Shown one piece after another: positions 4,936 through 32,174 of a stretch of 42,472 nucleotides of DNA. A model generated the notes under the pieces. It saw only the letters and a list, made by a program, of their open reading frames with translations. It did not search any database and was not told where the DNA came from. The stretch is from the UHGV virus genome UHGV-0206950; one strand, 5' to 3'. Within the stretch, counting starts at the first letter, position 1. Every line of letters begins with the position of its first letter. The position numbers and the translations under genes are program-made. Origin of the DNA: a virus.

Positions 4936-7067
4936 GAGAAATCATCGTTGATAATTTTGCTGGTGGTGGCGGTGCGTCAACCGGTATTGAAATGGCGATC
5001 GGTCGCAGTGTTGATATAGCAATCAACCACGATGAGAACGCTGTGGCGATGCACACTACGAATCACCCTGATACGCTGCACTATTGCGAGTCTGTGTATG
5101 AGGTTCGCCCAAAGGTAGCAACTGCGGGGCGCCCGGTGGCGCTGGCGTGGTTTTCTCCTGATTGCCGCCACTTTTCTAAAGCCAAGGGCGCTAAACCTGT
5201 CGAGAAAGCTATCCGTGGACTGGCATGGGTTGTGCTGCGTTGGGGGCTGGATGTTGAACCACGGGTAATGAAACTGGAGAACGTCGAAGAGTTTAAAACG
5301 TGGGGACCATTATTACGTGAAATGCCATTCATCAGTCACGCGGATCGCTTTCTTGATGAATTTATCGGACCACCTGAGCCAGTTGAACAGCGTCCCGACC
5401 CAGCTCGAATTGGTGAAACTTTTAACGCCTTTGTCGCAATGCTTACAACCGGCATTTCTGCAGATCATCCGGCGCTGGCAGAATGCTGTGAGTTTCTGAA
5501 TATTTCGCTTGATAGCGATGACGCCGCGCGGCTGGTAAAAGGCCTGGGCTATGTAGTTGAGTATCGCGAACTGCGCGCCTGTGACTATGGCGCACCGACA
5601 ATCAGAAAGCGTTTCTTCATGGTTATGCGACGTGATGGGAAGCCGATTGTATGGCCGGAACCAACGCATGGGGATCCGAAATCACCTGCGGTTCAGGCTG
5701 GCAGGCTGGCGCCATGGCGTACAGCTGCGGAGTGTATCGACTGGTCAATTCCGGCTCTATCGATATTCGACCGCAAAAAGCCGCTTGCAGAAAATACCCT
5801 GAAGCGGATCGCGCGCGGCATACAGCGCTTTGTTATCGACAGTGCGTCGCCGTTCATCGTGAAGTGCAATCACACCAGCACCAAAACGAGTTACGACTGT
5901 TTCCGAGGTCAAGCGCTGGGCGAACCTTTGCAGACCATTACCAAAACCCACGGCTACGCGTTAGCCGTTCCACATCTGACAAAGTTCCGTACTGGCGCAA
6001 CCGGGCAGCCCGTTACCGAACCGGTACCGACAGTTACCGCTGGCACGTCAAAACGCCCGGGCGGGAATGGGCATGCACTCGGGATTGTTGAGGCTGCACT
6101 GACACCATTCCTGGCGGGTAATGGTGGTAGTGAATACCAGGCTAAACCGCGCCCGCTGGATAAACCTGCTCACACCATTTTGAAGCAATCCCGCGCCTGT
6201 CTGGTTGCGCCAGTGATAGCCCGCCAGTTTGGGGCCAGCATCGGCCACCGGGCAGATGAACCGAGCGCAACTATCACCGCTGGTGGTGGTGGTAAATCTC
6301 AACTGGTAACACCAACGTTGATCCAGATGGGCTATGGGGAACGTCCCGGACAAGAACCGCGTGTGCTGCGACTGGATAACCCGCTGGGTACCGTTACTGC
6401 AGGTGGGAATAAATTCGCGACGGTGAGCGCGTTCCTGGCAAAGCATTACGGCGGCAACTATACGGGCCCGGGCGTCGGTTTAGATGAGCCTGTTCATTCA
6501 GTTACCACGGTTGATCACCACGCAGTTGTCGCTGCGCATTTGATGGTCAATAACACCGGACATCCCGGCGGCACACTGGACAATCCGGCTCATACTGTAA
6601 CGACAGGAAATCATCATGCAGTGGTTGCCTCCCATCTGGTGAAACTGCGAGGTACCTGCCGGGATGGGCAGCCAACCAGTGAACCAGTGCCAACGGTGAC
6701 GGCGGGCGGGCTGCACGTAGGGGAGGTGAAAACCACTCTTGCGGTCGATGAGTACGACGAATATCGCGCTCAGCAGACGCTTGAGTTTCTGCGGGAATAC
6801 TGCGGCGAGGATTGCGACGGGCTGGTGACAGTTGGCGGCATAACTTACCGCATCGTTGATATTGGCATGCGTATGCTGCAACCGCACGAGCTATACCGTG
6901 CGCAGGGCTTCCCGGAGTGGTACATCATCGACCAGGACTATCGGGGCAAGAAGTATGCGAAAGACAAGCAGGTTGCGCGATGCGGTAACGCCGTGCCACC
7001 GCCGTTTGCAGAGGCGCTGGTGAAGGCTAATTTGCCTGAATTATGCGTAAGCAGGGAGGCCGCGTAA
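4932..7067 (+). CDS. DNA (cytosine-5) methyltransferase with greatly expanded variable region containing about 7 tandem TRD-like repeats
   Basis: GTG start overlapping upstream TGA (GTGA); motif I IVDNFAGGGGAS, motif IV-like FSPDCRHFSKA, motif VI KLENVEEF, motif X CGNAVPPPF at C-terminus; repeats PVPTVTAGTS / PSATITAGGGG / PLGTVTAGGNK / PVHSVTTVDHH / PAHTVTTGNHH / PVPTVTAGGLH between motifs VI and X. Confidence 0.75.
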   Translation: MREIIVDNFAGGGGASTGIEMAIGRSVDIAINHDENAVAMHTTNHPDTLHYCESVYEVRPKVATAGRPVALAWFSPDCRHFSKAKGAKPVEKAIRGLAWVVLRWGLDVEPRVMKLENVEEFKTWGPLLREMPFISHADRFLDEFIGPPEPVEQRPDPARIGETFNAFVAMLTTGISADHPALAECCEFLNISLDSDDAARLVKGLGYVVEYRELRACDYGAPTIRKRFFMVMRRDGKPIVWPEPTHGDPKSPAVQAGRLAPWRTAAECIDWSIPALSIFDRKKPLAENTLKRIARGIQRFVIDSASPFIVKCNHTSTKTSYDCFRGQALGEPLQTITKTHGYALAVPHLTKFRTGATGQPVTEPVPTVTAGTSKRPGGNGHALGIVEAALTPFLAGNGGSEYQAKPRPLDKPAHTILKQSRACLVAPVIARQFGASIGHRADEPSATITAGGGGKSQLVTPTLIQMGYGERPGQEPRVLRLDNPLGTVTAGGNKFATVSAFLAKHYGGNYTGPGVGLDEPVHSVTTVDHHAVVAAHLMVNNTGHPGGTLDNPAHTVTTGNHHAVVASHLVKLRGTCRDGQPTSEPVPTVTAGGLHVGEVKTTLAVDEYDEYRAQQTLEFLREYCGEDCDGLVTVGGITYRIVDIGMRMLQPHELYRAQGFPEWYIIDQDYRGKKYAKDKQVARCGNAVPPPFAEALVKANLPELCVSREAA

Positions 7068-7405
7068 TGGCAAAATCAGCAGCAGAGCGCAAAGCAGCAC
7101 AGCGTGCCCGCCAGTCTGCTGCTGGTGGGCGGAAACTTGAACTGGTGCTGGATGCGCAGGAACTGGAAATGCTTGCCCGAAATTGCGCAGATCGTCGACC
7201 AGGCCGCACACCGTATGAAATGGGGGAATATATAGCGCTTCTCATTCGCCAGGATGATGCGCGTGTAAAGGGGCAGATAAAATCAATCCGCGCAAATAAA
7301 TGCAACAAGTGCGGTGACTCATTACCGGTTAAAGCATGCCCATGCGCAGGTGATTCTCAGTGCTGGGTTACACACGGATGGCATGTAGTAAAACTGACAA
7401 CGTGA
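7067..7405 (+). CDS. hypothetical basic/Cys-rich protein (112 aa)
   Basis: TAATG overlap with MTase stop, AGGGAGG SD; C-terminal CNKCGDSLPVKACPCAGDSQC cluster. Confidence 0.45.
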   Translation: MAKSAAERKAAQRARQSAAGGRKLELVLDAQELEMLARNCADRRPGRTPYEMGEYIALLIRQDDARVKGQIKSIRANKCNKCGDSLPVKACPCAGDSQCWVTHGWHVVKLTT

Positions 7406-12630: not shown

Positions 12631-13891
12631 ACATGTTATTGAGTTCCTGCCGTTCCATGCAGGGCAAAAGAAAATTTATCGCTCACCTGCAAAACGAAAA
12701 GTTATCCGTGCCGGACGTCGTTACGGCAAGACAACGATGTTGGAACAGGCTGGAGGGAACTGGGCAGCACGACAGATGCGTGTAGGCTGGTTTGCACCGT
12801 CTTATAAAATTCTGCTGCCGTCGTTTAAAGCTATACGGGACCTGTTAAAGCCAATCACGGTTAGTTCCAGTAAGACCGATGCGATTATCGAAACCATTGG
12901 TGGGGGGCAGGTCGAGTTCTGGACGCTGGATAACCCTGATGCTGGTCGATCCCGTAAATATCACAAAGTCATCATCGATGAAGGCAGCCTGGTAAAAAAG
13001 GGCATGCGTGATATCTGGGAACAGGCAATAGAGCCGACGTTGCTCGACTTTGACGGCGATGCAGTCATGGCCGGTACGCCGAAAGGCGTTGATGACGAGA
13101 ATTTTTTCTATCAGGCCTGTAACGATAAATCGATGGGCTGGGAGGAACATCACGCACCGACCGCTGCCAACCCGACTATTAATCCGGCTGCGCTGGCGCG
13201 AATTATTGATGGTCGCCCGCCGCTGGTGGTTCAGCAGGAATATAACGCTGAATTTGTGGACTGGCGCGGGCAGAACTTTTTCAAACTCGACTGGATTCTG
13301 GAAGATGGCGCGCCGGTCGACTACCCGTTTTCCTGCGATACGGTTTATGGCGTTGTTGACTGTGCGCAGAAGGGGAAGCTCCAGAACGATGGCTCCGCAT
13401 GCATCTGGTTTGCGCTGGATAACCTGCCATCGCCACACCTCGTTATTCTGGACTGGGACATTATCCAAATTGACGGATATTTCCTGAAAGACATTGTTCC
13501 TCAGTGGGAAGGAAAGGCCAAACAGCTTAGCGAAATATGCCGCGCGCGTATGGGGACTACAGGACTGTTCATTGAGGACAAGGCAACCGGAATCACCCTG
13601 TTACAGCAGGGCGCTAATGAGGGGTGGAACGTACACCCTATTGACAGTGATTTAACGTCACTTCCTAAAGAGTCTCGCGCCATCAACATTTCTGGTTATG
13701 TGGCGTCCGGGAAAGTACGCATTTCTAAATACGCCTTTGACAAAATCGTTGAGTACAAGCAATCGAAGAAAAATCATCTTCTGACGCAGGTGCTCAAGTT
13801 CATCATCGGTGAAGAAGACCAGGACGACGATCTGTTTGACTGCTTTAACTACGGCGTCGCGCTTGGCCTTGGTAACGGAGAGGGGTTCTGA
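12620..13891 (+). CDS. terminase large subunit
   Basis: Walker A AGRRYGKTT; overlaps terS end and portal start (TGATG). Confidence 0.75.
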   Translation: MATEHVIEFLPFHAGQKKIYRSPAKRKVIRAGRRYGKTTMLEQAGGNWAARQMRVGWFAPSYKILLPSFKAIRDLLKPITVSSSKTDAIIETIGGGQVEFWTLDNPDAGRSRKYHKVIIDEGSLVKKGMRDIWEQAIEPTLLDFDGDAVMAGTPKGVDDENFFYQACNDKSMGWEEHHAPTAANPTINPAALARIIDGRPPLVVQQEYNAEFVDWRGQNFFKLDWILEDGAPVDYPFSCDTVYGVVDCAQKGKLQNDGSACIWFALDNLPSPHLVILDWDIIQIDGYFLKDIVPQWEGKAKQLSEICRARMGTTGLFIEDKATGITLLQQGANEGWNVHPIDSDLTSLPKESRAINISGYVASGKVRISKYAFDKIVEYKQSKKNHLLTQVLKFIIGEEDQDDDLFDCFNYGVALGLGNGEGF

Positions 13892-15330
13892 TGCAGGACG
13901 ACGACGATATTTGCATGGGCAGCAATGCTGGCGTCCTCAGTAAGATTCTGGAGGGCGGAAGCATTGAACCCGGCGCGCAGGCAGGGTACGAGCTCTGCAA
14001 GCTGATTTATTTGTTTCACCCGCTGGGCGGAAAGATGGTAGATCGCCCTATAAAACTGGCGATGTCAGAACCACGAACTGTACATGTTACTCGTGGACCT
14101 GAAAGACGCCTGCGTGAAGCTTTCGAGCGCGAGTGGAAAGCGATTAAAGCCGATCGCATCATTGCCAACACTGCGCGCCAGTCAAGAATTTACGGTGTAG
14201 GCGCTGTGGTGATGCTCATTGACGGCGAGCCTACGAACGAAGCCGCTGGGTTTGACACACTGTATAAAAAATCCATCACCTTCAACGTGCTGGATCCGAT
14301 GAATACAGCCGGTTCTGTGGTGCTCAATCAGGACCCTAATTCTGCTGATTTCCAGAAGGTGGGAAGCGTGACTGCGGCGGGGCAACCTTACCATCATAGC
14401 CGCTGCTGCGTGATGATGAACGAGGATCCTATTTATCTGGCCTACACTTCGTCGTCCTTCGGTTTTGCCGGGCGCAGCGTTTATCAGCGTGCGCTTTATC
14501 CGCTGAAATCATTCATTCAGTCGATGCGCGCTGATGACATGGTAACGATTAAAGCCGGGCTGCTGGTGGCGTTTATCAAGCAGGCCAGTTCTATCGTCAA
14601 CAATATGATGCAGAAAATGTCCGGCATTAAGCGCTGGATGTTGAAGCGAGGCGGAAACGGCGATGTGTTACAGGTCGGTGAGAATGACAAAATTGAATCG
14701 CTCGATATGCAGAACCTCGAAAAGCCGCTGGATACTGCCCGCAATCACATTCTGGCAAATATCGCTACGGCGGCGGACATGCCCGCCATTCTGCTTAACA
14801 GCGAAACATTCACACGCGGATTTGGCGAAGGTACCGAGGATGCAAAAGCGGTAGCGCAATATATCGATGACGTTCGCAAAGACCTTGAGCCGCTTTACGA
14901 TTTCTTTGTGCGCATCGTGCAATACCGCGCCTGGTCTCGCGAATTTTTTGAGGCATTGAAAAACGACATGCCAGAGTACGAAAAAATCACCTGGGAGGCG
15001 GCATTCAATTCCTGGGTGAACAATTTCGACTACGTCTGGCCGTCAGCGTTGAAAGAGCCTGAAAGCGAAAAGGTCAAAGTTGACGAAACCCGCTTTAAGG
15101 CGATTACTGAGATGCTGAACGTGCTGCTGCCTCAGCTCACTAAAGACCCGCAAAACAGGGCAACGCTCATCAAATGGGGCTGTGAAAACGCCAACATGAA
15201 CGAAAATCTGTTTGCTGATCGGCTTGAGCTGGATTACGAACTGCTGGAGCAATGCCCTCCGGACCCTCCTCCAACAGGCAACGATAACGAGGATAACTAC
15301 GATGGCCTCATTCGTGAAAGAGCTGCGTGA
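13891..15330 (+). CDS. portal protein
   Basis: 479 aa, gene order terL-portal-head morphogenesis; acidic C-terminus. Confidence 0.55.
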   Translation: MQDDDDICMGSNAGVLSKILEGGSIEPGAQAGYELCKLIYLFHPLGGKMVDRPIKLAMSEPRTVHVTRGPERRLREAFEREWKAIKADRIIANTARQSRIYGVGAVVMLIDGEPTNEAAGFDTLYKKSITFNVLDPMNTAGSVVLNQDPNSADFQKVGSVTAAGQPYHHSRCCVMMNEDPIYLAYTSSSFGFAGRSVYQRALYPLKSFIQSMRADDMVTIKAGLLVAFIKQASSIVNNMMQKMSGIKRWMLKRGGNGDVLQVGENDKIESLDMQNLEKPLDTARNHILANIATAADMPAILLNSETFTRGFGEGTEDAKAVAQYIDDVRKDLEPLYDFFVRIVQYRAWSREFFEALKNDMPEYEKITWEAAFNSWVNNFDYVWPSALKEPESEKVKVDETRFKAITEMLNVLLPQLTKDPQNRATLIKWGCENANMNENLFADRLELDYELLEQCPPDPPPTGNDNEDNYDGLIRERAA

Positions 15331-16177
15331 CGCCATTAAACATTTTCTGGAATACGGTTACAGCAGCGAAGAAAGCCTGATCATGTGGACTGAGCGCCTG
15401 CGCAATGCCACGGAAAACAAAGTTGATGGAAATGACCTATACCGATACGTCAGCCGCCGGCTAACTGCAGCCTATGACCTGGAGATTGGACGGGAAAAAG
15501 CGCTGAAACGCCATATAGGTGTGAGTCGCTTCACTCTGAATTACCTTGAACCGAAACTTCGTGCTGAGCTGGACCGCCGGATCATGGCATCCGCCGATCT
15601 GATAAAACTCAACCGTACGCAGGCCATCGATAAAACCATTCAGCGCTTCAGCGGGTGGGCAACCAGTATCCCGCCGATAAGCGAAATGAGCGCCGGCCTG
15701 TCGGCTTCTTCCCGAACCGGGGTAATTGCTACCAGTCAGCACATCGCAAAATCCGCCCGTCAGATTGATTTCGAGCAGCGTCGGGTGATGGTCGATCAGA
15801 CGCATAAGCTTATCGCCAACATAGATAACATCATTGCCACTGAGGGTGGGGCAATTGCTGCTGTCTGGCACAGCCACTGGCGACAACCAAATTATGATTT
15901 TCGTGAACCTCATAAGGAACGAGATTTGCTGGTGTACGCCATTCGTGGCAACTGGGCGATAAAAAAGGGATTTATGAAGGTTGGTCCGGCGGGCTATCTC
16001 GATGAAATCACGCAACCGGGCGAAGAAGTCTTTTGTCGTTGCTACCTGACGTACATCTATAACGTCCGAAGCCTGCCTGATGAAATGAAAACCGAAAAAT
16101 GGCGGAAATTCATTGAAGGCAACAAATCAGTCGGTCGTCGTTCTGCAAACTTCGAGACCATAAAAAACGGAGGATAA
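15302..16177 (+). CDS. head morphogenesis / minor head protein, Mu F / SPP1 gp7-like (291 aa)
   Basis: position after portal; C-terminal conserved block with FCRCYLTY resembling the Mu-F-domain CRC motif (from memory). Confidence 0.45.
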   Translation: MASFVKELRDAIKHFLEYGYSSEESLIMWTERLRNATENKVDGNDLYRYVSRRLTAAYDLEIGREKALKRHIGVSRFTLNYLEPKLRAELDRRIMASADLIKLNRTQAIDKTIQRFSGWATSIPPISEMSAGLSASSRTGVIATSQHIAKSARQIDFEQRRVMVDQTHKLIANIDNIIATEGGAIAAVWHSHWRQPNYDFREPHKERDLLVYAIRGNWAIKKGFMKVGPAGYLDEITQPGEEVFCRCYLTYIYNVRSLPDEMKTEKWRKFIEGNKSVGRRSANFETIKNGG

Positions 16178-17752
16178 GTGAAAACCTACGCTGCCGGGAT
16201 CCTGTTTAAGTCTGGCGGGAAAATATTTCTGGTTAAGCGTGGGGATGATGGTTCGTGGGCGGTACCGGGCGGAAAACTCGAAGAGGGGGAAACGCCGGAA
16301 TTCGCGGCAAGGCGTGAAGTTCTGGAGGAGTGCGGGGTTGATTATTCCGCACCGCTGACGCCTCATACCCTGATTGATGGCTATGTTACTTACCTTGCTG
16401 ATGATGCTGAGCAATTCGACGCGGTTTTGAACGATGAAAATCAGGCCTGTGGCTGGTTTTCTCCAGATGAACTTCCCGATCCGCTACACCCAGGTATGGT
16501 GGCGATGCTTGATGCCGAACCACTCAATGAAATGGATGTTGCCGGGCTTATTGCTGACGGGCAACTCACATCCCCGCAATTTTTCAGAAATATGTACCTG
16601 TGGGCGCTGCGTATCACCGGAACGGGTGTTACATGGCGATCCAAATTCAGGCAATACGCCTACCGCTCCCCTGAAAATTACCTGACGGATGAATTTCTCG
16701 CCCGGTGTTCTGGCTTGCCCGTTATCTGGTGGCATCCAGAAAAAAACACGCTGAATAGTGAAGAATTCGCCTCAAGGACGATCGGGACGATTACGTTTGC
16801 CTGGATCAAAGGTGATGAGGTGTGGGGAATGGCCCGCATTTATGACACCGACGCCGCCGCGAATCTTTCAACGCGGCAACTCAGTACATCCCCCACGGTG
16901 ACGGGCGGCGATGACGTTCTGATCGACGTCGATGGCGAACCGCTACTGCTGGAAGGAACTCCGGTTTTACTGGATCACCTGGCCATTTGTGAGCAGGGCG
17001 TCTGGGACAAGCTAGGGGATCCGACGGGAGTTAAATCCGACACACTTTTGAACGAGGTCCAGAAAATGGATGAAGAAAAAGTATTAGCACTCATTAACCA
17101 GGCGCTGGACGCTCGCGAAGCCCGCGCAAAGGCCGATGCTGAGGAAAAAGCGAAAGCAGATGCCGAAGCAGCAGAAAAGGCGAAAGCTGATGAAGATGCT
17201 GCCCGTCTCAAGGAAGAGGAAGAAAAAACGAAAGCTGACGCTGATGCGAAAGCCAAGGCAGATGCAGAAGCCGAAGAAAAGGCGAAAGCTGATGCTGAAC
17301 TGGAAAAAATCCGGGCGGACATGGAAGAAATGAAAAGCCGTGTACCTCAGGAACTCAGCGACGAAGAACGTAACGAAATCGCTGATACCCAGTGCAAAGC
17401 GGACAGTGTATTTGCTTCTTTCGGAGAGCGAGCACCGCAACCAATGGCGGGTGAACGTGCGATGCCATATCGCCGCCGCATCATGACACGCCTGCAAAAA
17501 TATTCTCCTGATTATAAAGAAGTGGATCTGCATGCCATTGCAGACAGTCAACTCCTGAGCATTGCGGAGAAAAAAATCTATGCCGATGCGCAGGCATCAG
17601 CGGCCTCCAGTCTGGAACCCGGCGCAGGGTTGCGTGAAGTCATTCGCACCGACGCCACCGGGCGCCGTATCAGCACCTTTATCGGTGACCCGTCTGCGAC
17701 GTGGGCTCCGTTCCAGGCAGTCAGCCGTAAGCTCGCTGGCATCAACCAGTAA
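16178..17752 (+). CDS. fusion protein: N-terminal NUDIX hydrolase domain (about 110 aa) + head scaffolding-like domain with A/K/E/D-rich coiled-coil repeats
   Basis: canonical Nudix box [24 protein letters not shown] (Gx5Ex7REUxEExGU); GTG start after GGAGG; central [65 protein letters not shown] repeats typical of scaffold proteins. Confidence 0.6.
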
Positions 17753-17772: not shown

Positions 17773-18645
17773 ATGTCGAGCATTCTGTCAGTAAACCCAA
17801 TGCAGACCACAAATGCGCGTGGTACTTTCTACACGAAATCCGATGGTCTCATTCAGGGTGTTGCGCTGGATGATCCAGCTGCGCGCTATGCATTGGCATC
17901 CGGTACCCTCTCCAGCGATGAAGTAAAACCTCTCTGGGGCGGTCTGGCTGTCAATGAACTGGTGCCGGGAGCATCTTCAGCACCACGAGGCAGCGTTATC
18001 AAACGAGCTACCACTCTTTCACAACTGGTGGGGTTCTCTGTATTCAACCAGGCACACAATGGCCTGACCACTCCGCAATCGCCAGTGCCTCTTTTCCTCA
18101 GCAACATGAGTGTGTCGTTCTATCGTCTGGGTTCCGGGATGCGTGTTCCGGTCAAAGCCTCTGATGCCGTGATCTCTCTGGCCAGCGCGGGGATTTCCGT
18201 TAATCAGCCGTTGGTCTGGAACTTTGCTGAGGATTGCCTCGATGTATTCAGCACAGTAGCGGCAGATGTGGCGACCACGGAAATCACATGGACTTCTCCT
18301 ACTTCCAATGCTTCAGGGTTCGCTACCGCGACGACTGCCAGCGCTCATGGACTGAAAGTGGGCGGTTATGTGGATATTACTGGTGCGGCTCCGGCTGCAT
18401 ATAACGGTATCGTTCAGGTGCTCAGTGTTCCTACGGCAACCACATTCACATTTACCCCGGTTTCAGTGCCTACAGGCAATGCAACCACTCAGGGAACGGT
18501 AGGGGCGGCAAAAGTGCAGGACGTCGCCCTTCCGGTAAAAATCATCGAAATGCAGATGGGTAACAGCAAAACCGTTTCTTACGATTCGGCGACGGGCTTT
18601 GCTACCTGGAACGACAGCGGAAACGCTGCGGTAATTCTGCTGTAA
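17773..18645 (+). CDS. putative head decoration / structural protein (290 aa)
   Basis: position between scaffold-like gene and putative major capsid gene (lambda D-like position); Thr/Ala/Ser-rich beta-type composition. Confidence 0.35.
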   Translation: MSSILSVNPMQTTNARGTFYTKSDGLIQGVALDDPAARYALASGTLSSDEVKPLWGGLAVNELVPGASSAPRGSVIKRATTLSQLVGFSVFNQAHNGLTTPQSPVPLFLSNMSVSFYRLGSGMRVPVKASDAVISLASAGISVNQPLVWNFAEDCLDVFSTVAADVATTEITWTSPTSNASGFATATTASAHGLKVGGYVDITGAAPAAYNGIVQVLSVPTATTFTFTPVSVPTGNATTQGTVGAAKVQDVALPVKIIEMQMGNSKTVSYDSATGFATWNDSGNAAVILL

Positions 18646-18662: not shown

Positions 18663-19694
18663 ATGCCAGCTATTACACCCGCTTATCAAATTGTAAATCC
18701 GTCGTACATCATGCCGGAAATGATCCTGTCCTATCAGCAGGCATCTGGCGCATTTTCCGTTATGGCCAGTGGTAACCCGCTGGTTCGTCTGTCTGACGGT
18801 GACCAGTACGTTTACATGAAACGTCTGGATATTCGTACTCAGGTTACCTCCAGCCAGTCTGGGAATGCCAACCAGTTGCCATCCGTTGCACTGGATGCAC
18901 GAATGGTTAGTACGCCAACGTATATGTTCCGCGCCCGCGCCATTTACGATCATCATGATATGGCCGCTGCGGGGAACTGGGGGATTGCATTGCCGGAAGC
19001 TCAGCGTCTTGGTACCCGGCAGGCAATTTTCCAGCAACTGCGAAATGCGCTGCTGTACGGCATGAATCCAGCTGGCGGTGAAGGTGTTCTGAATACCAAC
19101 GGTGCGACCACTATCAGTCTTCCGGCAGACAGTGGCGGAAATACTACCGTCCTGACTTACGATCATGGCGAAATGGCTGTATTCCTGCTGGCACAGATTC
19201 AGGCAATCCGCACCCGCACTATGCAAATGGGCCGTCCGTCACGAATGGTTATTCTTGGCCCTCAGCGTACGCTGGGTACGATGGAGATGCAGCAGATTGT
19301 TCAGTTGACCAGTTACCAGCGTCCTGGCGGCGGTACTGCGACAGTTAAAGGGACCGTTGCTGGTGTTGCAGACGATGCAGACTGCGGCATTGACTGGGTT
19401 TATGACGATACACTAATCGGTGCTGGGGCAAATGGTACTGATGCAGTGATTATCGCCATGCCAGAAGTTGAACGGCCGGAGGTGAACGCGAAAATCAACA
19501 CTAACGAATTCGCGAAACTTAGCCCGTCGTTGGAAGCGACATCACTGATGCTGTGTGACATGGCCGCACCGCGAGAAATCCCGACTCCGATTGCGGGTGG
19601 GGCGATCGACGTACTTTCCGAACTGCGCTCCACTTCCGGCTGGGTGCTTCGTCCTGAGGCGCTGACCATCATTTCGATGAAATACAGCAATTAA
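18663..19694 (+). CDS. putative major capsid protein (343 aa)
   Basis: size and position (lambda E-like), strong SD GGAGAGG. Confidence 0.5.
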   Translation: MPAITPAYQIVNPSYIMPEMILSYQQASGAFSVMASGNPLVRLSDGDQYVYMKRLDIRTQVTSSQSGNANQLPSVALDARMVSTPTYMFRARAIYDHHDMAAAGNWGIALPEAQRLGTRQAIFQQLRNALLYGMNPAGGEGVLNTNGATTISLPADSGGNTTVLTYDHGEMAVFLLAQIQAIRTRTMQMGRPSRMVILGPQRTLGTMEMQQIVQLTSYQRPGGGTATVKGTVAGVADDADCGIDWVYDDTLIGAGANGTDAVIIAMPEVERPEVNAKINTNEFAKLSPSLEATSLMLCDMAAPREIPTPIAGGAIDVLSELRSTSGWVLRPEALTIISMKYSN

Positions 19695-22038: not shown

Positions 22039-23433
22039 ATGACAATCGTAAATATCAATGTGTCGGTGACCAATCCGCCAAAACCATCTCAGTTATTAAA
22101 GTCTGGTGCGATGATCTCCACTGGAGGGACCACGTTGGCGGCGGGCAGTTATCAGTTGCTGACGTCAAAGGATGATCTAAAAAATATCGTCGCGCCAGCG
22201 AAGACAATTTCTACTCTTACATGGGCTGCCAATGTTGTTACGGTGACTCTTTCAGAAAATCATGGCTGGTCCAGTGGGGACCAAATCCCGGTAGTCATTT
22301 CTGGCGCGACTCCGGAAGCGTATAACGGGGCTTACACTGCCTCCGTTACGGGGAATAAAACCTTTACCTATACGCTAAGCAGCGATCCTGGAACTGCAAC
22401 AGTAATGGGTACGGTGACAACAGTTGCGGCTGGGGAAATCCAGCAAATGAATACCACATACTGGGGGCAGGGTTCTAATCGGGCTGTTTACGTTCTCGAA
22501 CTGGGAGACATAAGTGTTACATCGGCGATTGCGGCATTGAGCGATTTTATCGATAAAGATATTTCCCTCGGCAACACGTACCAGAAATTCTTCTCCTACT
22601 TGGTCCCACGTGAATGGGATACTGAGCCAACGTTTAAGACCATGACGGGCCTGTATACCAGCCCGGCGTCACTGGTGTATTTCTTTGTCACCACCACGAT
22701 CTCGACCTACCCGGCGTGGGTCACCACCAAAAATAAATCGGTCTTTGCAGGTGTCGAATCCCCAAACATCCCTGCAGGCGAGTTTTCCATGGCCGCCTGG
22801 TTCCAGTCCTCTCTGGCAAACGACCCAGGCTCATCAAATATGGTTCCGCCAATGGCGTACCGTTTTGGATACGGCGTAACCGAGTACCCGGTAGAAGGGA
22901 ATGGCACGCTGCTTAAACAACTCCAGGACAACAGCATCAATTACGTTGGCACCGCCGCGGAAGGTGGGCTGAGCAACAAAATGCTGGTGGCTGGTCACAT
23001 GCTGGACGGTAATCCGTTCAATTACTGGTATTCCGTGGCGTGGACTGCAATCAACCTCGAGCTCGATCTGGCTAACGAAATCATCAACGGTTCAAACACC
23101 ACCGTTAACCCGCTGTACTACGAGAAGAACGGCATCGACCGCCTGCAGCGCCGCGCGCTGAAGACTCTGCGCAATGGCATCAGTTACGGACTTATTCTCG
23201 GGCGTGTGATTGGTACTGGTCTGACGCAGCAGGATTTCAACATCGAATACGAGAAAGGCACATATGCCGGGAACGCGGTTATCAACGCTGTGCCGTTCGC
23301 GGATTACACCAGCCTGAATCCGTCCGATTACGCCGATGGCAAATATAACGGCCTGAGCGCCGTAATGACACCGCGCCGCGGCTTCGAATCAATCACGTTT
23401 AACGTGAACGTAACCAACTTTGTAGGGGCGTAA
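22039..23433 (+). CDS. contractile tail sheath protein
   Basis: 464 aa, first of sheath-tube-chaperone-tape measure series. Confidence 0.55.
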   Translation: MTIVNINVSVTNPPKPSQLLKSGAMISTGGTTLAAGSYQLLTSKDDLKNIVAPAKTISTLTWAANVVTVTLSENHGWSSGDQIPVVISGATPEAYNGAYTASVTGNKTFTYTLSSDPGTATVMGTVTTVAAGEIQQMNTTYWGQGSNRAVYVLELGDISVTSAIAALSDFIDKDISLGNTYQKFFSYLVPREWDTEPTFKTMTGLYTSPASLVYFFVTTTISTYPAWVTTKNKSVFAGVESPNIPAGEFSMAAWFQSSLANDPGSSNMVPPMAYRFGYGVTEYPVEGNGTLLKQLQDNSINYVGTAAEGGLSNKMLVAGHMLDGNPFNYWYSVAWTAINLELDLANEIINGSNTTVNPLYYEKNGIDRLQRRALKTLRNGISYGLILGRVIGTGLTQQDFNIEYEKGTYAGNAVINAVPFADYTSLNPSDYADGKYNGLSAVMTPRRGFESITFNVNVTNFVGA

Positions 23434-23436
23434 AAA

Positions 23437-23874
23437 ATGGCAAACCCATTAGTACCGCAGGGATTCCTCAACCGCGTCCGTGGCGCGGTTTCCATCACTG
23501 ATGTTCCGGCTCTGAATGTCACCGCATCTTATCTTGGTAAAGACGGGATCAGCATGCGTCCGGACGGTCCCGCCACGGATATTCTGCCGACCATGACCGG
23601 CACTGTCGGCAGTCAGGTACCGTATCAGCAGGTTACCTTAACCGTACACATGCTGCGCACTCAGGGTCTTGCCGCAAGCTATCAACAGCGCTTTACGACG
23701 GACACAGCGCTTGGCGAGGTGGTCGTTACCCCGGACGCAACCACATTTGGCAACTTCACCTTGCTTAACTGCTATCTGGTCAACTTTAACGAGATGCCAT
23801 TTAACGGCATGGATGCCGGGTACGTGGTAACCATCAGCGGCTACCTCATCACCAACGACAACATGTGGATCTGA
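23437..23874 (+). CDS. tail tube protein
   Basis: 145 aa directly after sheath. Confidence 0.5.
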   Translation: MANPLVPQGFLNRVRGAVSITDVPALNVTASYLGKDGISMRPDGPATDILPTMTGTVGSQVPYQQVTLTVHMLRTQGLAASYQQRFTTDTALGEVVVTPDATTFGNFTLLNCYLVNFNEMPFNGMDAGYVVTISGYLITNDNMWI

Positions 23875-24452
23875 CTGTGAAAATCGATAAAAAACTAAAT
23901 CTGGTCTGTTCGATCAGCCGTGATGACGGTGCTCTCATTTATGTTCACACCTCACCTTTTCCCTATGAGGTGGTGGAAGAGCATTGCCTGATGCTCGGTA
24001 GCCTGTTTACCAGTTTCATTGCTCAGGTTGGTGGGCTTGGCGCGGCCCGGGTAGCGGCAATGATGCTTCGGAAGAAAATTAAAAAGGAACAGGAGGTAAC
24101 CGGGCAGGATGGCCCAAACATTGTTGATGAAATCCAGCGCCAGACAACAGTCATTTTTAATGACAACGGTCAGTGGAAATCTGTGCCGTTAGATTCTGCG
24201 ATGAAACAGGGCATTATTTCCGCTGACGAGTTTCGTGAGGTGGAAGGCGAAATCGTTTTTTTTATGGTTTTCTCTGCCATTCAGAAACCGGATCTCATCA
24301 AACCGACGGTGGGGAGCGTGATCGGTATGTTCGGTGGTCAGTTAACGTTATCGACCGCTACGGAGTGGCGAGGTTCTTTACTGACGTCGAAAACGGATAC
24401 CGATACCCCGAACCAGACTGCCCCGCAGGAAACGTCGTTTATACCCTCCTAG
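23865..24452 (+). CDS. tail assembly chaperone (zero-frame product)
   Basis: position between tube and tape measure; contains T8 run; -1 frame open to 24586. Confidence 0.55.
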   Translation: MDLTVKIDKKLNLVCSISRDDGALIYVHTSPFPYEVVEEHCLMLGSLFTSFIAQVGGLGAARVAAMMLRKKIKKEQEVTGQDGPNIVDEIQRQTTVIFNDNGQWKSVPLDSAMKQGIISADEFREVEGEIVFFMVFSAIQKPDLIKPTVGSVIGMFGGQLTLSTATEWRGSLLTSKTDTDTPNQTAPQETSFIPS

Positions 24453-24586
24453 ACTGGGCCTCTAACGAGGGGTTCAGGGACGTTGTAAGGGAAATAGCTG
24501 GCGAGGAATACGCCAGCCCATCCCAGTTCAGGCAGCGCTTTATCCTCTCCGCCTTAAAAGAAAGGGGTCATTTCAATGGCAGCTAA
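23865..24586 (+). CDS. tail assembly chaperone, -1 frameshift fusion product (about 239 aa; shift at GTTTTTTTTA 24255-24264)
   Basis: slippery T TTT TTT heptamer in zero frame (codons gtt ttt ttt atg); -1 frame has no stop from 24239 to 24586 and ends overlapping tape-measure start. Confidence 0.5.
24256..24263 (+). promoter_or_regulatory. programmed -1 ribosomal frameshift slippery run (T8)
   Basis: read directly; conserved chaperone G/GT-type arrangement. Confidence 0.5.
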
Positions 24587-26402
24587 ATCCATTATTGAAG
24601 TTGATGTAAATGACGAAAAGTTCTTGTCATTTATGGAAAAATTCAACGAATACCAGGCTGCTCTTGAAGATCTTCCCGAAGCATGGCGGGCATCTGCGCA
24701 GGGTATTGGCGACACCGCCCGCGAAACGTCAAAAGCATCCTCAGAAGCAGAGGGGATGACAAAGGCTTTTTTGGATGGCGTTGATGCTTTGAATATGATG
24801 GTGAATAACCTCGATCGCATCAACACCAGCCTTGACGATGCCAATAAGCGTCAGAGTGACCTGAATAAGAAAACTGCTGGCTCTTCCAGCATATTTGGCA
24901 AACTTAAAAAGGACTCAAAAGAGTTCGCCGGCCATATCAAAGACGCCACAGTCAGCCTGCTGTCATGGGGCGGTATTGTTGGGCTGTTTACTGGTGTTCT
25001 CGGCGCTGGTGGGTTGTTCGGACTGAACCGCCTAGCATCCACCGCGAGCGCCCAGCGATTCACCTCTATGGGGTTGAATACCTCGATTGGTGCCCTAGAT
25101 TCAACGGCCATTAACTACCAGCGTGCAGTGGCCAACCCAACAGCGACACTGGGCGCCATTCGTGACACTCAGGCCGATTTATCCCAGCGCTGGAAATTCC
25201 AGGCTATGGGGATCAATAACCCTGACCGTTCACCGGACCAGTTGCTGCCGGAGATGATTCGTGCCGCCAGGAGTATTTTCACGCAAACAGGTGGCACGTT
25301 GCAGGGGGCTAACGCCTACGGGTTGACCAGCTTCTTCAGTATTGATGACCTCAATCGCTTTAAAAATATGAGCGATGCCGAGATCGACGCTATGGAGAAA
25401 CGTGCGAAGCGTGACGCTCAGTTGCTGCAGATCACTGATGAGCAGGCCCGGCAATGGCAGGATTTCAATATTCAACTCGACTACAGCAGTCAGAGCATCA
25501 AAAACACGTTCATCCGTGGACTTGGCCCGCTTACCCCTGGACTGACAAAACTCTCTGATGCGTTGTCTGGTGCTATCGATACCGTTCTTCAATCTCCAGA
25601 ACTTGGAAAATGGATCGACGGGCTCGCTGGTGGTATTCAGCGATTTGGTGATTACCTGGCCTCTCCCGACTTTAAAAATGATGTCGAAAACTTCATGGTA
25701 AAAGTCGAGAAGCTTGGAAAAGTAATTGGGAAGGTTGTCGACTGGATTATTGGTAAAACAGACACCACAGGAATTATTGATGGTGTTAAATCAGAATCGA
25801 CAATTCTTAATGCAAATCCAGTGACAGACCCTAAGACAGGAAAAACGTATACACCTGGTAGCGAGGATGACCCGCATGTTTGGGGGTGGCTAAAAGGGGT
25901 AAAGCGATTCTTTTCTGGCGGAGACATTGCTCCTGTTGATCCTCTGCCAGCTAATGTCAACGCTAAAGGTCGCACGATTGCCGATCGGTTCAACAACCCC
26001 GGAAATCTGAGGTGGGCGGAAGGCTACGAGACTAGCAACACCAAAAGTGGGAAGTTCGCCGTATTTCCAACACTTGATGAAGGCGTTCTGGCGGCAACAA
26101 AGCAACTCCAGATATACGGCCAGCGCGGGACAAACACTGTAAGGGACATCGTCAGTAAATGGGCTCCATCAAATGAAAACAACACGGAGGAGTATATCCG
26201 GCATGTTGTTCGCTCGACCAAATTTAATGAGAACGAAAAACTCAATCTGAACGATCCCTATGTGCTGGCGAAGTTAATTTCTGCAATGGCCTCAAAAGAG
26301 GGGGCAGGAAGCCGAGTTACAGAGGACCGGGTTATTCAGATTTACAACAACACGGGGGGTAACGCGATTGTTACCGGATCACAGTTGGGGGCTATGGGAT
26401 AA
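24576..26402 (+). CDS. tail tape measure protein
   Basis: 608 aa, helical/Gly-rich composition, position after chaperone pair. Confidence 0.55.
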   Translation: MAAKSIIEVDVNDEKFLSFMEKFNEYQAALEDLPEAWRASAQGIGDTARETSKASSEAEGMTKAFLDGVDALNMMVNNLDRINTSLDDANKRQSDLNKKTAGSSSIFGKLKKDSKEFAGHIKDATVSLLSWGGIVGLFTGVLGAGGLFGLNRLASTASAQRFTSMGLNTSIGALDSTAINYQRAVANPTATLGAIRDTQADLSQRWKFQAMGINNPDRSPDQLLPEMIRAARSIFTQTGGTLQGANAYGLTSFFSIDDLNRFKNMSDAEIDAMEKRAKRDAQLLQITDEQARQWQDFNIQLDYSSQSIKNTFIRGLGPLTPGLTKLSDALSGAIDTVLQSPELGKWIDGLAGGIQRFGDYLASPDFKNDVENFMVKVEKLGKVIGKVVDWIIGKTDTTGIIDGVKSESTILNANPVTDPKTGKTYTPGSEDDPHVWGWLKGVKRFFSGGDIAPVDPLPANVNAKGRTIADRFNNPGNLRWAEGYETSNTKSGKFAVFPTLDEGVLAATKQLQIYGQRGTNTVRDIVSKWAPSNENNTEEYIRHVVRSTKFNENEKLNLNDPYVLAKLISAMASKEGAGSRVTEDRVIQIYNNTGGNAIVTGSQLGAMG

Positions 26403-27112
26403 TGGGGTTCACTCGTGAGATGTACAAGCTGGGGTTTGAAATATCCCCGGTTATCCTGTGCGATGGCATCGCGCAGGCAATCCCAGGTGGTATGCTACCG
26501 ATTGTTGCCCTGACCCAAAGTGCCAGTTTTGTTACTGGTCTTTTAGGGGGCGCAATAAATCTTACAGACCTGGATAAGTATTTCTGTCACTGGAAGCCAG
26601 TGCAGGGCGCGACGATAGTAGATTATGACATTGCCCGCTATCCTTTTGCTAACCAGGTTGTGGCCGCGAATGCCTTACTGGCACAACCGTTGCGTGTTGC
26701 TCTGGAAATGAAGGCCCCGGTTAACCAAAACACCGGGGCAATGACAAAGCTGGTAACAATAAGCGCACTCCAGTCTGTCTTACAGGCACACGCCAACTTG
26801 GGCGGAACATTCATCGTTGCTACCCCATCAGTTATCTATAACCGCTGCATTTTGCGCACTGTAAAGGATGTCACCAGCGGAAATGATGCATTACCTCAGC
26901 TGACATGGATGTGGGATTTCGAGCAGCCTCTGATCACCGAAACTGGTGCAGAGCAGGCGGTAAATAACTTTCTTGGGAAAATTGGTGGCGGAGACAAGGT
27001 TACAGAATCAGCCTGGACAAGTACTGTAAACGCCCTTGGTAACACATCTCTTGGAGGTTCTGTCTCTGAGGCTATTACTGGTCTGCTTGGTAAATTGGGA
27101 GTGGCAACATGA
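26402..27112 (+). CDS. tail/baseplate assembly protein (236 aa)
   Basis: position, overlapping stops/starts with neighbours. Confidence 0.35.
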   Translation: MGFTREMYKLGFEISPVILCDGIAQAIPGGMLPIVALTQSASFVTGLLGGAINLTDLDKYFCHWKPVQGATIVDYDIARYPFANQVVAANALLAQPLRVALEMKAPVNQNTGAMTKLVTISALQSVLQAHANLGGTFIVATPSVIYNRCILRTVKDVTSGNDALPQLTWMWDFEQPLITETGAEQAVNNFLGKIGGGDKVTESAWTSTVNALGNTSLGGSVSEAITGLLGKLGVAT

Positions 27113-31587: not shown

Positions 31588-31630
31588 GTGTTGTAGACTG
31601 CTACAGTCATTTTTAAAACTAGGTACTCTT

Positions 31631-32095: not shown

Positions 32096-32174
32096 TGATT
32101 CTAGAACGCATTTGATGAAACTGTATAACCTCGCTTCGGCGGGGTTTTTTATTGCCAAAAATCTCGGAGGAAAA

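What the first reader, a model, noticed from the sequence alone, without database searches (positions are those of the whole stretch)
16178..17752. NUDIX hydrolase domain fused to a head scaffolding-like protein, next to a Mu-F-like head protein
A textbook Nudix box, [24 protein letters not shown], sits at the N-terminus of a 524-aa protein. The remainder has the charged (EEKAKADA)n coiled-coil character of scaffolding proteins and lies in the portal-to-capsid interval. The upstream gene (15302-16177) resembles Mu F / SPP1 gp7 minor head proteins, a family proposed to have an ADP-ribosyltransferase-like fold. A virion-associated NUDIX activity (ADP-ribose/NAD pyrophosphatase or RNA decapping) delivered or matured with the capsid would be unusual. 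Together with an ART-like neighbour, this suggests an NAD/ADP-ribose-directed function, possibly against host defence.
Basis: partly seen in the sequence, partly recalled or inferred. Interest (0 to 1): 0.75.

Follow-up and report, generated by a model that had tools for sequence, protein, structure and literature searches.

The report
Nudix enzyme fused to head protease-scaffold
A temperate phage's head-assembly gene encodes three parts, a small nucleotide-cleaving (Nudix) enzyme, the protease that matures the capsid and the scaffold; this layout is common in phages and was already noted in print, but nobody has tested what the enzyme does.

Summary
The ORF (16178-17752, 524 aa) and its perfect Nudix box are real. 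Residues 116-290 are a capsid-maturation serine protease: Pfam DUF2213, T4 gp21/herpesvirus assemblin fold, invariant His186/Ser238/His267. So the gene encodes Nudix + prohead protease + coiled-coil scaffold, possibly with a nested scaffold start at Met297.

The fusion is not rare. 80 of the 149 closest 50%-identity clusters of this protease carry the same Nudix clade at the N-terminus. The same clade also occurs:
- on Burkholderia phage BcepB1A gp26, at the protease N-terminus;
- on the Bcep781 portal, at the C-terminus;
- as a stand-alone gene between MuF and the protease in phage Bm1.

Some relatives carry an ADP-ribosyltransferase, a GNAT acetyltransferase, a PBECR1 RNase or a ferritin-like domain in the same N-terminal position, which therefore behaves like a cargo slot.

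Iyer et al. 2022 (PMC9503650) already reported Nudix fusions to MuF, portal and the capsid-processing serine peptidase, and proposed packaging into the head and injection.

The neighbouring gene is MuF-like, but I found no evidence that it is ART-like. Substrate, encapsidation and ejection remain untested.

Verdict: a real, ordinary member of a published but experimentally unexplored architecture.

The parts
16178..17752 (+). Whole gene: Nudix + prohead protease + scaffold polyprotein (524 aa, GTG start)
   Evidence: ORF list. Full-length match to PHROG 6216, E = 7e-259. Homologues at 88-96% identity in Citrobacter, Serratia and Salmonella prophages.
16169..16173 (+). Shine-Dalgarno GGAGG, 4 nt before the GTG start; the stop codon of the upstream gene is at 16175-16177
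   Evidence: Read directly from the sequence. Homologues start at the same residue (M-[KE]-T-Y-A-A-G).
16178..16522 (+). Nudix hydrolase domain (aa 1-115)
   Evidence: Pfam PF00293, aa 5-110, E = 2.4e-17. Homologues without Nudix begin exactly at the residue equivalent to L116.
16271..16339 (+). Nudix box, G32-V54 (GX5EX7REUXEEXGU)
   Evidence: Every defined position is met (sequence). E38, R46, E47, E50, E51 and G53 are 87-95% conserved across 80 diverse fusion proteins. The clade-specific residues E87 and W93 are 100% conserved.
16523..17047 (+). Capsid-maturation (prohead) serine protease domain, DUF2213/COG3566 (aa 116-290)
16733..16735 (+). His186, candidate catalytic histidine
   Evidence: Invariant in 105 diverse family members.
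16889..16891 (+). Ser238 (in the T-S-P motif), candidate nucleophile
   Evidence: T237, S238 and P239 are invariant in 105 members.
16976..16978 (+). His267 (in D266-H267), candidate third triad residue
   Evidence: D266 and H267 are invariant in 105 members. The order His...Ser...His matches assemblin-type proteases (established knowledge).
17054..17057 (+). GAGG, possible internal Shine-Dalgarno 8 nt before ATG 17066
   Evidence: Sequence. PdC23 has GAGG and Rac-SA53 has AGGTG at the same spacing before the equivalent Met. The motif also lies within conserved codons, so this is only suggestive.
17066..17752 (+). Scaffold portion (aa 297-524), possibly also made on its own from Met297 (228 aa)
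   Evidence: M297 is invariant among close homologues. BcepB1A annotates an in-frame nested scaffold gene (gp25, 226 aa) inside its Nudix-DUF2213 gene gp26. No other scaffold candidate lies between the portal and the capsid gene.
17090..17332 (+). Charged Ala/Glu/Lys/Asp low-complexity, coiled-coil-like stretch (about aa 305-385), variable in length
   Evidence: Alignment A1 shows indels confined to this stretch. It produces spurious TolA matches.
17333..17749 (+). Conserved C-terminal domain of the scaffold part (aa 386-524)
   Evidence: Many invariant columns in A1, and conserved in the 105-sequence set. Its function (capsid-protein binding) is inferred, not shown.
15302..16177 (+). Upstream neighbour: MuF/SPP1 gp7-like head morphogenesis protein (291 aa)
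   Evidence: PHROG 324, E = 5e-38. A 99% identical 291-aa protein in Citrobacter freundii confirms the start. Motif shared with PF04233-positive Bcep proteins. The protein itself has no Pfam or TIGR01641 hit.
13891..15330 (+). Portal protein
   Evidence: Pfam PF06381 and PHROG 146.
18663..19694 (+). Major capsid protein, the presumed substrate and partner of the protease-scaffold
   Evidence: Pfam PF09950, PHROG 6671 and PHROG 264.

Best explanation
The gene encodes a three-part head-assembly polyprotein.

Shown by computation here:
- aa 1-115 is a Nudix pyrophosphohydrolase with a complete, conserved catalytic box.
- aa 116-290 is a capsid-maturation serine protease of the T4 gp21 / herpesvirus assemblin fold, with invariant His186, Ser238 and His267.
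- aa 297-524 is a coiled-coil scaffold with a conserved C-terminal domain.

Inferred from the known behaviour of protease-scaffold fusions (herpesvirus UL26/UL26.5, lambda C/Nu3, P2 gpO):
- The scaffold end co-assembles with the capsid protein, so the whole protein, Nudix included, is built into the procapsid.
- The protease then cuts scaffold and itself.
- A shorter scaffold-only product may also be made from Met297.

More speculative:
- The folded 13-kDa Nudix domain stays trapped in the mature head and enters the next host cell with the DNA, as T4 Alt and the internal proteins do.
- There it hydrolyses an ADP-X type compound before any phage gene is expressed. Candidates are ADP-ribose, NAD-derived immune signals such as cyclic ADPR isomers, or NAD caps on RNA.

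My confidence by step is about 0.9 for the domain architecture, about 0.55 for encapsidation, and about 0.3 for ejection with a counter-defence or ADP-X role.
For: Domain architecture:
- Pfam NUDIX and DUF2213.
- AF2 model with pLDDT 89.
- H186, S238, D266 and H267 are invariant in 105 sequences.
- PHROG 530 'head maturation protease' matches aa 162-389.
- BcepB1A gp26 has NUDIX + DUF2213 (E = 1.6e-35), is annotated as head maturation protease, and contains the nested scaffold gene gp25.

Active enzyme: the Nudix-box residues are 87-95% conserved and E87/W93 100% conserved across 80 diverse fusions.

Linkage to the head interior: the same Nudix clade, with the signature F..lNDEh.a.gWf....P.PLHPG, sits in three places:
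- at the protease N-terminus (this window and BcepB1A);
- at the portal C-terminus (Bcep781 gp17, 98.9 bits against the clade HMM);
- as a stand-alone gene between MuF and the protease (phage Bm1).

Cargo-slot behaviour: relatives carry other domains in the same N-terminal position:
- a PBECR1 RNase (P0137);
- an ADPrib_exo_Tox ART inserted into the Nudix (P0222);
- a GNAT acetyltransferase (P0178);
- a ferritin-like domain (P0216).

PBECR and ART domains are typical of head-packaged effectors (PMC5512222; PMC9503650).

ADP-X chemistry:
- 34% identity over 68 aa to T4 NudE (pairwise E = 2e-8).
- The T4 record annotates NudE as active on FAD, ApnA, ADP-ribose and NADH.
- T4 NudE.1 decaps NAD-RNA in vitro (bioRxiv 10.1101/2024.04.04.588121).

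The same packaging-and-injection proposal for such fusions was published by Iyer et al. 2022.
Against: - There is no virion proteomics or biochemistry for any member. Encapsidation, survival of the Nudix domain after proteolysis, and ejection are all inferred.
- The stand-alone Nudix gene in phage Bm1 has no obvious capsid anchor. Conserved gene position and easy fusion to a self-cleaving neighbour could therefore explain the architecture without packaging.
- About 40% of the closest protease clusters, and phage Rac-SA53, lack the domain. It is accessory.
- The substrate is unassigned. The best NCBIfam and PDB matches are generic MutT-type hits far below family cut-offs. Similarity to T4 NudE covers only the N-terminal half.
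- Spatial proximity of H186, S238 and H267 in the model could not be checked because no coordinates were available.
- The internal start at Met297 rests on a GAGG that is also part of conserved codons.
Confidence: 0.55

Rival explanations
1. The Nudix domain works only in the producing cell, late in infection. It is made in scaffold-like amounts together with the head genes. It might degrade ADPR-type signals or products released when defence systems sense late structural proteins, or do nucleotide housekeeping. The fusion to the self-cleaving protease is a tolerated by-product of gene adjacency, and the domain is lost or degraded during head maturation.
For: The same clade exists as a free 142-aa gene at the same position in phage Bm1, and as a free gene among virion genes in Ralstonia phage PQ43W. 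A fusion to a protease that cuts itself out is easy to evolve and harmless. The domain is accessory, absent from about 40% of close relatives.
Against: Fusions to two different capsid-interior proteins, the portal C-terminus and the protease N-terminus, are kept across distant phages. Iyer et al. 2022 also report fusions to MuF. The same slot hosts ART and PBECR domains that are otherwise typical of packaged effectors. The fusion is stable across 80 clusters at 50% identity or less.
Confidence: 0.27
2. One reading: a Nudix-scaffold protein works as a pair with an ADP-ribosyltransferase-like MuF neighbour in an NAD/ADP-ribose-directed function.
For: The neighbour is MuF-like. One relative of the Nudix-protease carries a true ART domain (P0222, PF03496). 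Phage ARTs are often encoded in or fused to head modules (PMC9503650).
Against: The window's MuF-like protein has no ART or Phage_Mu_F Pfam hit even at E <= 10. It has no NCBIfam hit and no PDB profile hit. Its structure model failed. The literature treats MuF as a structural anchor with an RNase-like (PBECR) C-terminal domain, and ARTs as separate fused domains.
Confidence: 0.08
3. The Nudix domain is a MutT-like sanitising enzyme (8-oxo-dGTP or other non-canonical dNTPs) that protects phage DNA synthesis.
For: The best NCBIfam and PDB matches are MutT-type enzymes.
Against: These matches are far below family cut-offs (36 bits against 148) and cover mainly the shared Nudix box. The gene lies in the late head operon, not with the replication genes at 249-2617. 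Fusion to a capsid protease makes no sense for a replication-phase role.
Confidence: 0.06
4. Artefact or dead domain: two genes joined by a sequencing frameshift, or a catalytically inactive relic.
For: None found.
Against: The reading frame is continuous and the junction (…HPG…PLNE…) is conserved in independent genomes and isolated phages. The catalytic residues are under clear conservation.
Confidence: 0.02

Closest known systems
Burkholderia phage BcepB1A gp26/gp25 (head maturation protease, COG3566, with nested scaffold)
   Same: Same three-part order. NUDIX (aa 46-118) is followed by DUF2213 (aa 167-337, E = 1.6e-35) and a C-terminal scaffold annotated as an in-frame nested gene. It lies downstream of a MuF gene and upstream of a small virion protein and the major head protein. 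Its Nudix belongs to the same clade (80 bits against the clade HMM).
   Different: It is a virulent Burkholderia phage and only distantly related in sequence. Its DUF2213 matches the Pfam model much better than the window's does. It has a 45-aa leader before the Nudix domain.
Nudix fusions to head proteins described by Iyer, Burroughs, Anantharaman and Aravind 2022 (Viruses 14:1977)
   Same: [quoted passage not shown] This is the same architecture class and the same hypothesis.
   Different: It is a purely computational survey. It gives no census for this protease family, no structural assignment of DUF2213, and no mention that I found of ART, GNAT, PBECR or ferritin-like domains in the same slot.
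Herpesvirus UL26/UL26.5, lambda C/Nu3 and P2 gpO protease-scaffold genes (established knowledge)
   Same: An N-terminal assemblin-fold serine protease is joined to a C-terminal scaffold. In UL26/UL26.5 and C/Nu3 an in-frame nested gene produces the scaffold alone. The protease enters the procapsid through the scaffold part.
   Different: None of these carries an extra enzyme ahead of the protease. The nested start here is only inferred.
T4 Alt and internal proteins (capsid-targeted, gp21-processed, injected with the DNA)
   Same: Enzymes are loaded into the prohead, processed by a gp21-fold protease and delivered into the host. Alt acts on NAD (cited in PMC9503650 and PMC5512222).
   Different: T4 uses a short N-terminal capsid-targeting sequence on separate proteins. 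Here the cargo is covalently part of the protease-scaffold. Nothing has been shown experimentally for this family.
T4 NudE (gene e.1) Nudix hydrolase
   Same: 34% identity over the N-terminal 68 residues, including the first strand and the Nudix box. T4 nudE is encoded next to the lysozyme gene e and the internal virion protein genes ipII and ipIII.
   Different: T4 NudE is a free 151-aa protein. The clade-specific C-terminal signature of the window's domain is not matched: the HMM alignment stops at model position 63 of 124.
Bcep781 gp17 (portal with C-terminal Nudix) and MuF-fused effectors
   Same: The same Nudix clade (98.9 bits) is attached to another capsid-interior protein, within the same type of head module: PF06381 portal, PF04233 MuF, DUF2213 protease.
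   Different: The attachment point is the portal C-terminus, so at most 12 copies per virion are expected, against the higher copy number expected for a protease-scaffold.

Membership tests
Nudix hydrolase superfamily (PF00293) | Nudix box GX5EX7REUXEEXGU | tested here: met
   G32-V54 matches every defined position (sequence). Conserved across 80 relatives.
Nudix hydrolase superfamily (PF00293) | Full-domain profile match above the curated cut-off | tested here: met
   63.6 bits against a cut-off of 21.1. aa 5-110 cover profile positions 6-130 of 134.
Nudix hydrolase superfamily (PF00293) | Pyrophosphohydrolase activity on a nucleoside-diphosphate-X substrate | not testable with these tools
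   Needs enzyme assays.
T4 NudE-like clade / ADP-ribose-type specificity | Specific sequence relationship to T4 NudE over the whole domain | tested here: inconclusive
   BLASTP gives 34% identity over 68 aa (pairwise E = 2e-8). The clade HMM aligns only to the N-terminal half of T4 NudE (37.8 bits). The NCBIfam NudE, ADPR-diphosphatase and NudC models are not matched by the window protein at E <= 0.1.
Capsid-maturation serine proteases of the assemblin / T4 gp21 / HK97 gp4 fold | The fold | tested here: met
Capsid-maturation serine proteases of the assemblin / T4 gp21 / HK97 gp4 fold | Conserved His and Ser (plus a third residue) in the order His...Ser...His/acid | tested here: met
   H186, S238, D266-H267 and E259 are invariant in 105 sequences. 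Their proximity in three dimensions was not checked.
Capsid-maturation serine proteases of the assemblin / T4 gp21 / HK97 gp4 fold | Gene located between the portal and the major capsid protein | tested here: met
Capsid-maturation serine proteases of the assemblin / T4 gp21 / HK97 gp4 fold | Cleaves scaffold or capsid protein during maturation | not testable with these tools
   Needs expression and mutagenesis.
DUF2213 / COG3566 (PF09979) | Profile match above the gathering score | tested here: met
   25.3 bits against 22, aa 160-274. Strong matches in Bcep781 gp14 (176 bits) and BcepB1A gp26 (123 bits).
Scaffolding protein (protease-scaffold fusion type) | Helical or coiled-coil C-terminal region encoded just upstream of the capsid gene, with no separate scaffold gene in the module | tested here: met
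   Charged low-complexity stretch plus a conserved C-terminal domain. The only other ORFs between the portal and the capsid gene are the MuF-like gene and a 290-aa protein of unknown function.
Scaffolding protein (protease-scaffold fusion type) | Nested in-frame start giving a scaffold-only product | tested here: inconclusive
   Invariant Met297 with GAGG 8 nt upstream, and the same pattern in PdC23 and Rac-SA53. Annotated precedent in BcepB1A. There are no expression data.
MuF / SPP1 gp7 head morphogenesis family (neighbour 15302-16177) | Match to PF04233 or TIGR01641 | tested here: not met
   No hit at E <= 10 (Pfam) or E <= 0.1 (NCBIfam). Membership rests on PHROG 324 (E = 5e-38) and a shared C-terminal motif with PF04233-positive proteins.
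ADP-ribosyltransferase fold (claimed for the neighbour) | ART fold or catalytic motif | tested here: inconclusive
   No ART family hit. The AF2 model was too poor to search (pLDDT 38.5).
Head-packaged, injected effectors (T4 Alt/IP type; MuF- or portal-fused effectors) | Physical link to a capsid-interior component | tested here: met
   Covalent fusion to the protease-scaffold. The same clade is fused to the portal in Bcep781.
Head-packaged, injected effectors (T4 Alt/IP type; MuF- or portal-fused effectors) | Presence in mature virions and ejection into the host | not testable with these tools
   I found no proteomic data for any member (paper searches).

The most novel reading that the evidence does not exclude
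The N-terminus of this widespread prohead protease-scaffold family may be a general cargo slot. Through it, temperate phages would load ready-made enzymes into the capsid and deliver them with the DNA. The cargo is mostly one dedicated Nudix clade, but also ART, GNAT, PBECR RNase and ferritin-like domains. On this reading the Nudix cargo destroys ADP-ribose-based immune signals (for example Thoeris cyclic ADPR or His-ADPR) or NAD caps in the first moments of infection. That would make it an enzymatic, virion-delivered counter-defence of a kind not yet demonstrated.
Probability: 0.25. Interest if true: 0.7.

Novelty: new member of a known kind. Interest (0 to 1): 0.4.

Why it matters
If the Nudix domain is delivered inside the capsid, it would be a pre-made enzyme acting before any phage gene is transcribed, and it occurs in hundreds of prophage lineages of Enterobacterales and Burkholderia. 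Its chemistry, cleavage of the pyrophosphate in ADP-X compounds, is suited to destroying ADPR-derived defence signals or NAD caps.

A May 2026 preprint abstract returned by my search (PMC13232231) says phage proteins are known to sequester Thoeris signals and presents RyR-domain proteins that degrade ADPR-based signals. I found no Nudix described in that role.

The family is easy to test. Isolated phages are available (PdC23, Chronis, the Yersinia vB_YenM phages), and natural Nudix-less variants such as Rac-SA53 show that the domain can be removed cleanly at residue 116.

As it stands, the window adds one more member to an architecture already noted in the literature.

Tried and rejected
- Megablast of the two genes against 50,697 phage records found no match. 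Relatives are detectable only at protein level.
- The AlphaFold2 model of the MuF-like neighbour was unusable (14-sequence alignment, pLDDT 38.5), so no fold search was run on it.
- hhalign of the family alignments against single BcepB1A sequences was uninformative: probabilities were below 2% because the templates had one sequence each. Pfam on those proteins settled the question instead.
- A PDB profile search with the MuF alignment gave only chance hits.
- TRF on the coiled-coil region found no DNA-level tandem repeat.
- Summer et al. 2006, the paper on BcepB1A and Bcep781 that may hold virion protein data, is not in the library. Searches for virion proteomics of Nudix fusions found nothing relevant.
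- The genomic context of the ART-bearing relative P0222 is only a 6.2-kb metagenome contig and shows little.
- I considered an L-x-E (T4 gp21-type) cleavage site at L116-N117-E118, the Nudix/protease junction, with similar N-E pairs at 292-293 and 399-400. I did not adopt it. E118 is equally conserved in Nudix-less homologues that begin M-x-E-L, so it is probably structural.
- Substrate markers recalled from memory (a proline about 15-16 residues after the box for ADP-ribose pyrophosphatases; SQPWPFPxS for NADH pyrophosphatases) are absent. I give this little weight.
Full report
**1. The observation**

The window holds a single uninterrupted ORF at 16178-17752 on the + strand (524 aa, GTG start). 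A GGAGG Shine-Dalgarno lies 4 nt upstream, and the stop codon of the preceding gene ends at 16177.

Residues G32-V54 ([23 protein letters not shown]) satisfy every defined position of the Nudix box GX5EX7REUXEEXGU. Pfam NUDIX matches aa 5-110 with E = 2.4e-17.

It varies in length among near-identical homologues of 490-524 aa but is not a DNA-level tandem repeat.

The surrounding genes, in order, are:
- TerS (11659);
- TerL (12620);
- portal, PF06381 (13891);
- a MuF-like head morphogenesis gene, PHROG 324 (15302);
- this ORF;
- a 290-aa ORF of unknown function (17773);
- the major capsid protein, PF09950 (18663).

**2.

Between the Nudix domain and the coiled coil lies a third domain. Pfam DUF2213 matches aa 160-274 just above its cut-off, and PHROG 530 'head maturation protease' matches aa 162-389.

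I searched 1.84 billion representative proteins with aa 116-300. This gave 818 clusters with E <= 0.001, of which 498 had E <= 1e-30.

An alignment of 105 diverse members shows an invariant core: H186, T237-S238-P239, E259, D266-H267 and G274-V275-W276.

The order His...Ser...His matches the assemblin type of catalytic triad (established knowledge).

The protein is therefore Nudix + prohead serine protease + scaffold, not Nudix + scaffold.

**3. The scaffold part and a possible nested gene**

Met297 is invariant among close homologues and is preceded at 8 nt by GAGG. The equivalent Met in Pantoea phage PdC23 and E. coli phage Rac-SA53 has GAGG or AGGTG at the same spacing.

In Burkholderia phage BcepB1A the homologous gene gp26 is annotated 'head maturation protease, COG3566'. 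It contains an annotated in-frame nested gene gp25, 'scaffold protein' (226 aa).

This is the layout of herpesvirus UL26/UL26.5 and lambda C/Nu3 (established knowledge). The internal start in the window is plausible but not shown, because the GAGG also lies within conserved codons.

**4. How common the fusion is**

- PHROG 6216 matches the whole protein (E = 7e-259).
- tblastn finds the full architecture in Pantoea phage PdC23, Klebsiella phages Chronis, RothC and RothD, five Yersinia phages and a Shewanella phage. PdC23 has the same gene order.
- The large protein database holds homologues at 88-96% identity in Citrobacter freundii, Serratia and Salmonella. Many more at about 55% identity occur in Klebsiella, Enterobacter and others.
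- Among the 149 best representative clusters of the protease domain, 80 carry an N-terminal domain homologous to the window's aa 1-115, 9 carry some other extension, and about 60 carry none.
- Homologues without Nudix begin M-[NDT]-E-L, exactly at the residue equivalent to L116. The Nudix module is therefore a clean N-terminal addition.

Across the 80 fusions the catalytic residues E38, R46, E47, E50, E51 and G53 are 87-95% conserved. Clade-specific residues are even more conserved: T71, F80, P100, H104 and P105 at 91-97%, and E87 and W93 at 100%.

This argues for an active enzyme.

**5. The same Nudix clade elsewhere in head modules**

A profile of the clade scores 98.9 bits on the C-terminus of the Bcep781 portal gp17 and 80.1 bits on the N-terminus of BcepB1A gp26. 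Both matches cover the whole domain, including the signature lNDEh.a.gWf....P.PLH.

Pfam confirms portal + NUDIX in Bcep781 gp17, NUDIX + DUF2213 in BcepB1A gp26, and PF04233 MuF proteins next to both.

In Burkholderia phage Bm1 the matching Nudix is a free 142-aa gene between the MuF gene and the protease gene. In Ralstonia phage PQ43W it is a free gene among virion genes.

The domain is thus stably tied to the head module. It is found free, on the portal, or on the protease.

**6. A cargo slot**

Some relatives have other enzymes ahead of the protease domain:

| Relative | Domains ahead of the protease |
|---|---|
| P0137 | PBECR1 RNase |
| P0222 | Nudix interrupted by an ADPrib_exo_Tox ADP-ribosyltransferase (24.7 bits against a cut-off of 23.4) |
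| P0178 | Nudix interrupted by a GNAT acetyltransferase |
| P0216 | Rubrerythrin/EncFtn-like ferritin domain + Nudix |
| P0128 | DUF5710 + Nudix |

Eleven of the 149 representatives carry a short motif HPRxxDG(K/R)F. In ten of them it lies in the N-terminal extension, ahead of the protease domain. The motif is absent from the window.

PBECR and ART domains are typical of effectors fused to MuF or portal proteins and thought to be packaged and injected (Iyer et al. 2017, PMC5512222; Iyer et al. 2022, PMC9503650). This makes physical loading into the capsid the more likely reading, though it is not proof.

**7. Prior knowledge**

I found no experimental work on any member.

**8. Substrate**

The domain is a minimal Nudix. 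NCBIfam and PDB matches are generic MutT-type hits far below family cut-offs.

Against T4 NudE the identity is 34% over the N-terminal 68 residues (pairwise E = 2e-8), but the clade profile does not align beyond the Nudix box. The T4 record lists NudE as active on FAD, diadenosine polyphosphates, ADP-ribose and NADH. A preprint describes its NAD-RNA decapping activity in vitro.

An ADP-X substrate is therefore the best guess, helped a little by the ART-bearing relative. It remains a guess.

**9. The neighbour**

The 291-aa protein (15302-16177) has a 99% identical 291-aa homologue in Citrobacter freundii, which confirms its start.

It matches PHROG 324 'head morphogenesis'. It shares a W-H-S...R..H...PGxxxxCxC motif with BcepB1A gp27 and Bcep781 gp16, both of which match PF04233. 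BcepB1A gp27 also passes the TIGR01641 cut-off, while Bcep781 gp16 matches it only weakly, below the cut-off.

The protein itself matches neither model. Its structure model failed and no ART family or PDB relative was found.

It is MuF-like, but the 'ART-like neighbour' argument has no support here.

**10. Context**

The window looks like a complete temperate myovirus genome:
- replication initiator and DnaB helicase (249-2617);
- three DNA methyltransferase genes (3581-7067);
- NinB, Q antiterminator and endolysin;
- the head module described above;
- tail sheath (22039), tape measure with a transglycosylase domain (24576), baseplate and tail fibre;
- on the minus strand, integrase (35350-36369), Gam, a 757-aa exonuclease and a repressor.

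No other NAD/ADPr-related gene turned up among the 27 ORFs I scanned.

**11. Verdict**

The finding is real and well described as far as it goes, but it is incomplete because the protease was missed, and it overstates rarity.

The most likely mechanism is a protease-scaffold polyprotein that carries a Nudix enzyme into the procapsid. Delivery into the next host and action on ADP-X compounds are plausible, previously proposed and untested.

I rate it a new member of a known kind, of moderate interest. Its value lies in being a tractable test case for virion-delivered enzymatic counter-defence.

Noticed in passing
Relatives P0222, P0178, P0137, P0216 and P0128: The position ahead of the DUF2213 protease hosts other enzymes. 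P0222 has an ADPrib_exo_Tox ART and P0178 a GNAT, each inserted into a loop of the Nudix domain. P0137 has a PBECR1 RNase, P0216 a rubrerythrin/EncFtn-like ferritin domain and P0128 a DUF5710. The ferritin-like case recalls encapsulin cargo.
   Followed up: partly
11 of 149 representative proteins (e.g. P0137 aa 34, P0222 aa 85, P0250 aa 34 and 100): A short motif HPRxxDG(K/R)F occurs in 11 of 149 representatives. In ten of them it lies in the N-terminal extension, ahead of the protease domain. It is absent from the window's head proteins. Its role (docking peptide, processing site or recombination scar) is unknown.
   Followed up: partly
window 17773-18645 (+): A 290-aa ORF lies between the scaffold and the major capsid gene. 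It matches PHROG 6268 (unknown function). Its C-terminal part (aa 164-243) resembles segments of virion structural and tail-fibre proteins. It occupies the place of the small 'minor head / virion structural' proteins of Bcep781, BcepB1A and Bm1. Its PdC23 counterpart is annotated 'endosialidase'. It may be a head decoration or cement protein.
   Followed up: no
window 3581-7067 (+): Three consecutive DNA methyltransferase genes (200, 251 and 736 aa) lie in the early region. That is an unusually heavy anti-restriction load for a 42-kb temperate phage.
   Followed up: no
window 1-42472: The window appears to be a whole temperate myovirus genome in permuted order. It holds replication genes at the start, integrase (35350-36369), Gam, a 757-aa exonuclease and a repressor on the minus strand near the end, and a contractile tail module at 22039-33691. 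The closest proteins are from Citrobacter freundii prophages.
   Followed up: partly
L002 (Escherichia phage Rac-SA53), locus 210-1350 and 5995-7287: Rac-SA53 has the same head module but its protease-scaffold lacks the Nudix domain, although the record's note still says 'nudix'. It carries the heat-labile enterotoxin IIa genes (an ART toxin) directly upstream of the terminase genes. Iyer et al. 2022 also remark on this.
   Followed up: no
window 17090-17332 (+): The charged coiled-coil stretch is a length-polymorphic region. Homologues at 89-96% identity are 490, 498, 506, 508 or 524 aa long, and all indels fall in this stretch. No DNA tandem repeat is detectable.
   Followed up: partly
window 24576-26402 (+): The tape-measure-like protein (608 aa) carries a C-terminal lytic transglycosylase/endolysin-like domain (PHROG 873 and 7182, aa 456-586). 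It is another virion-borne enzyme in this phage.
   Followed up: no
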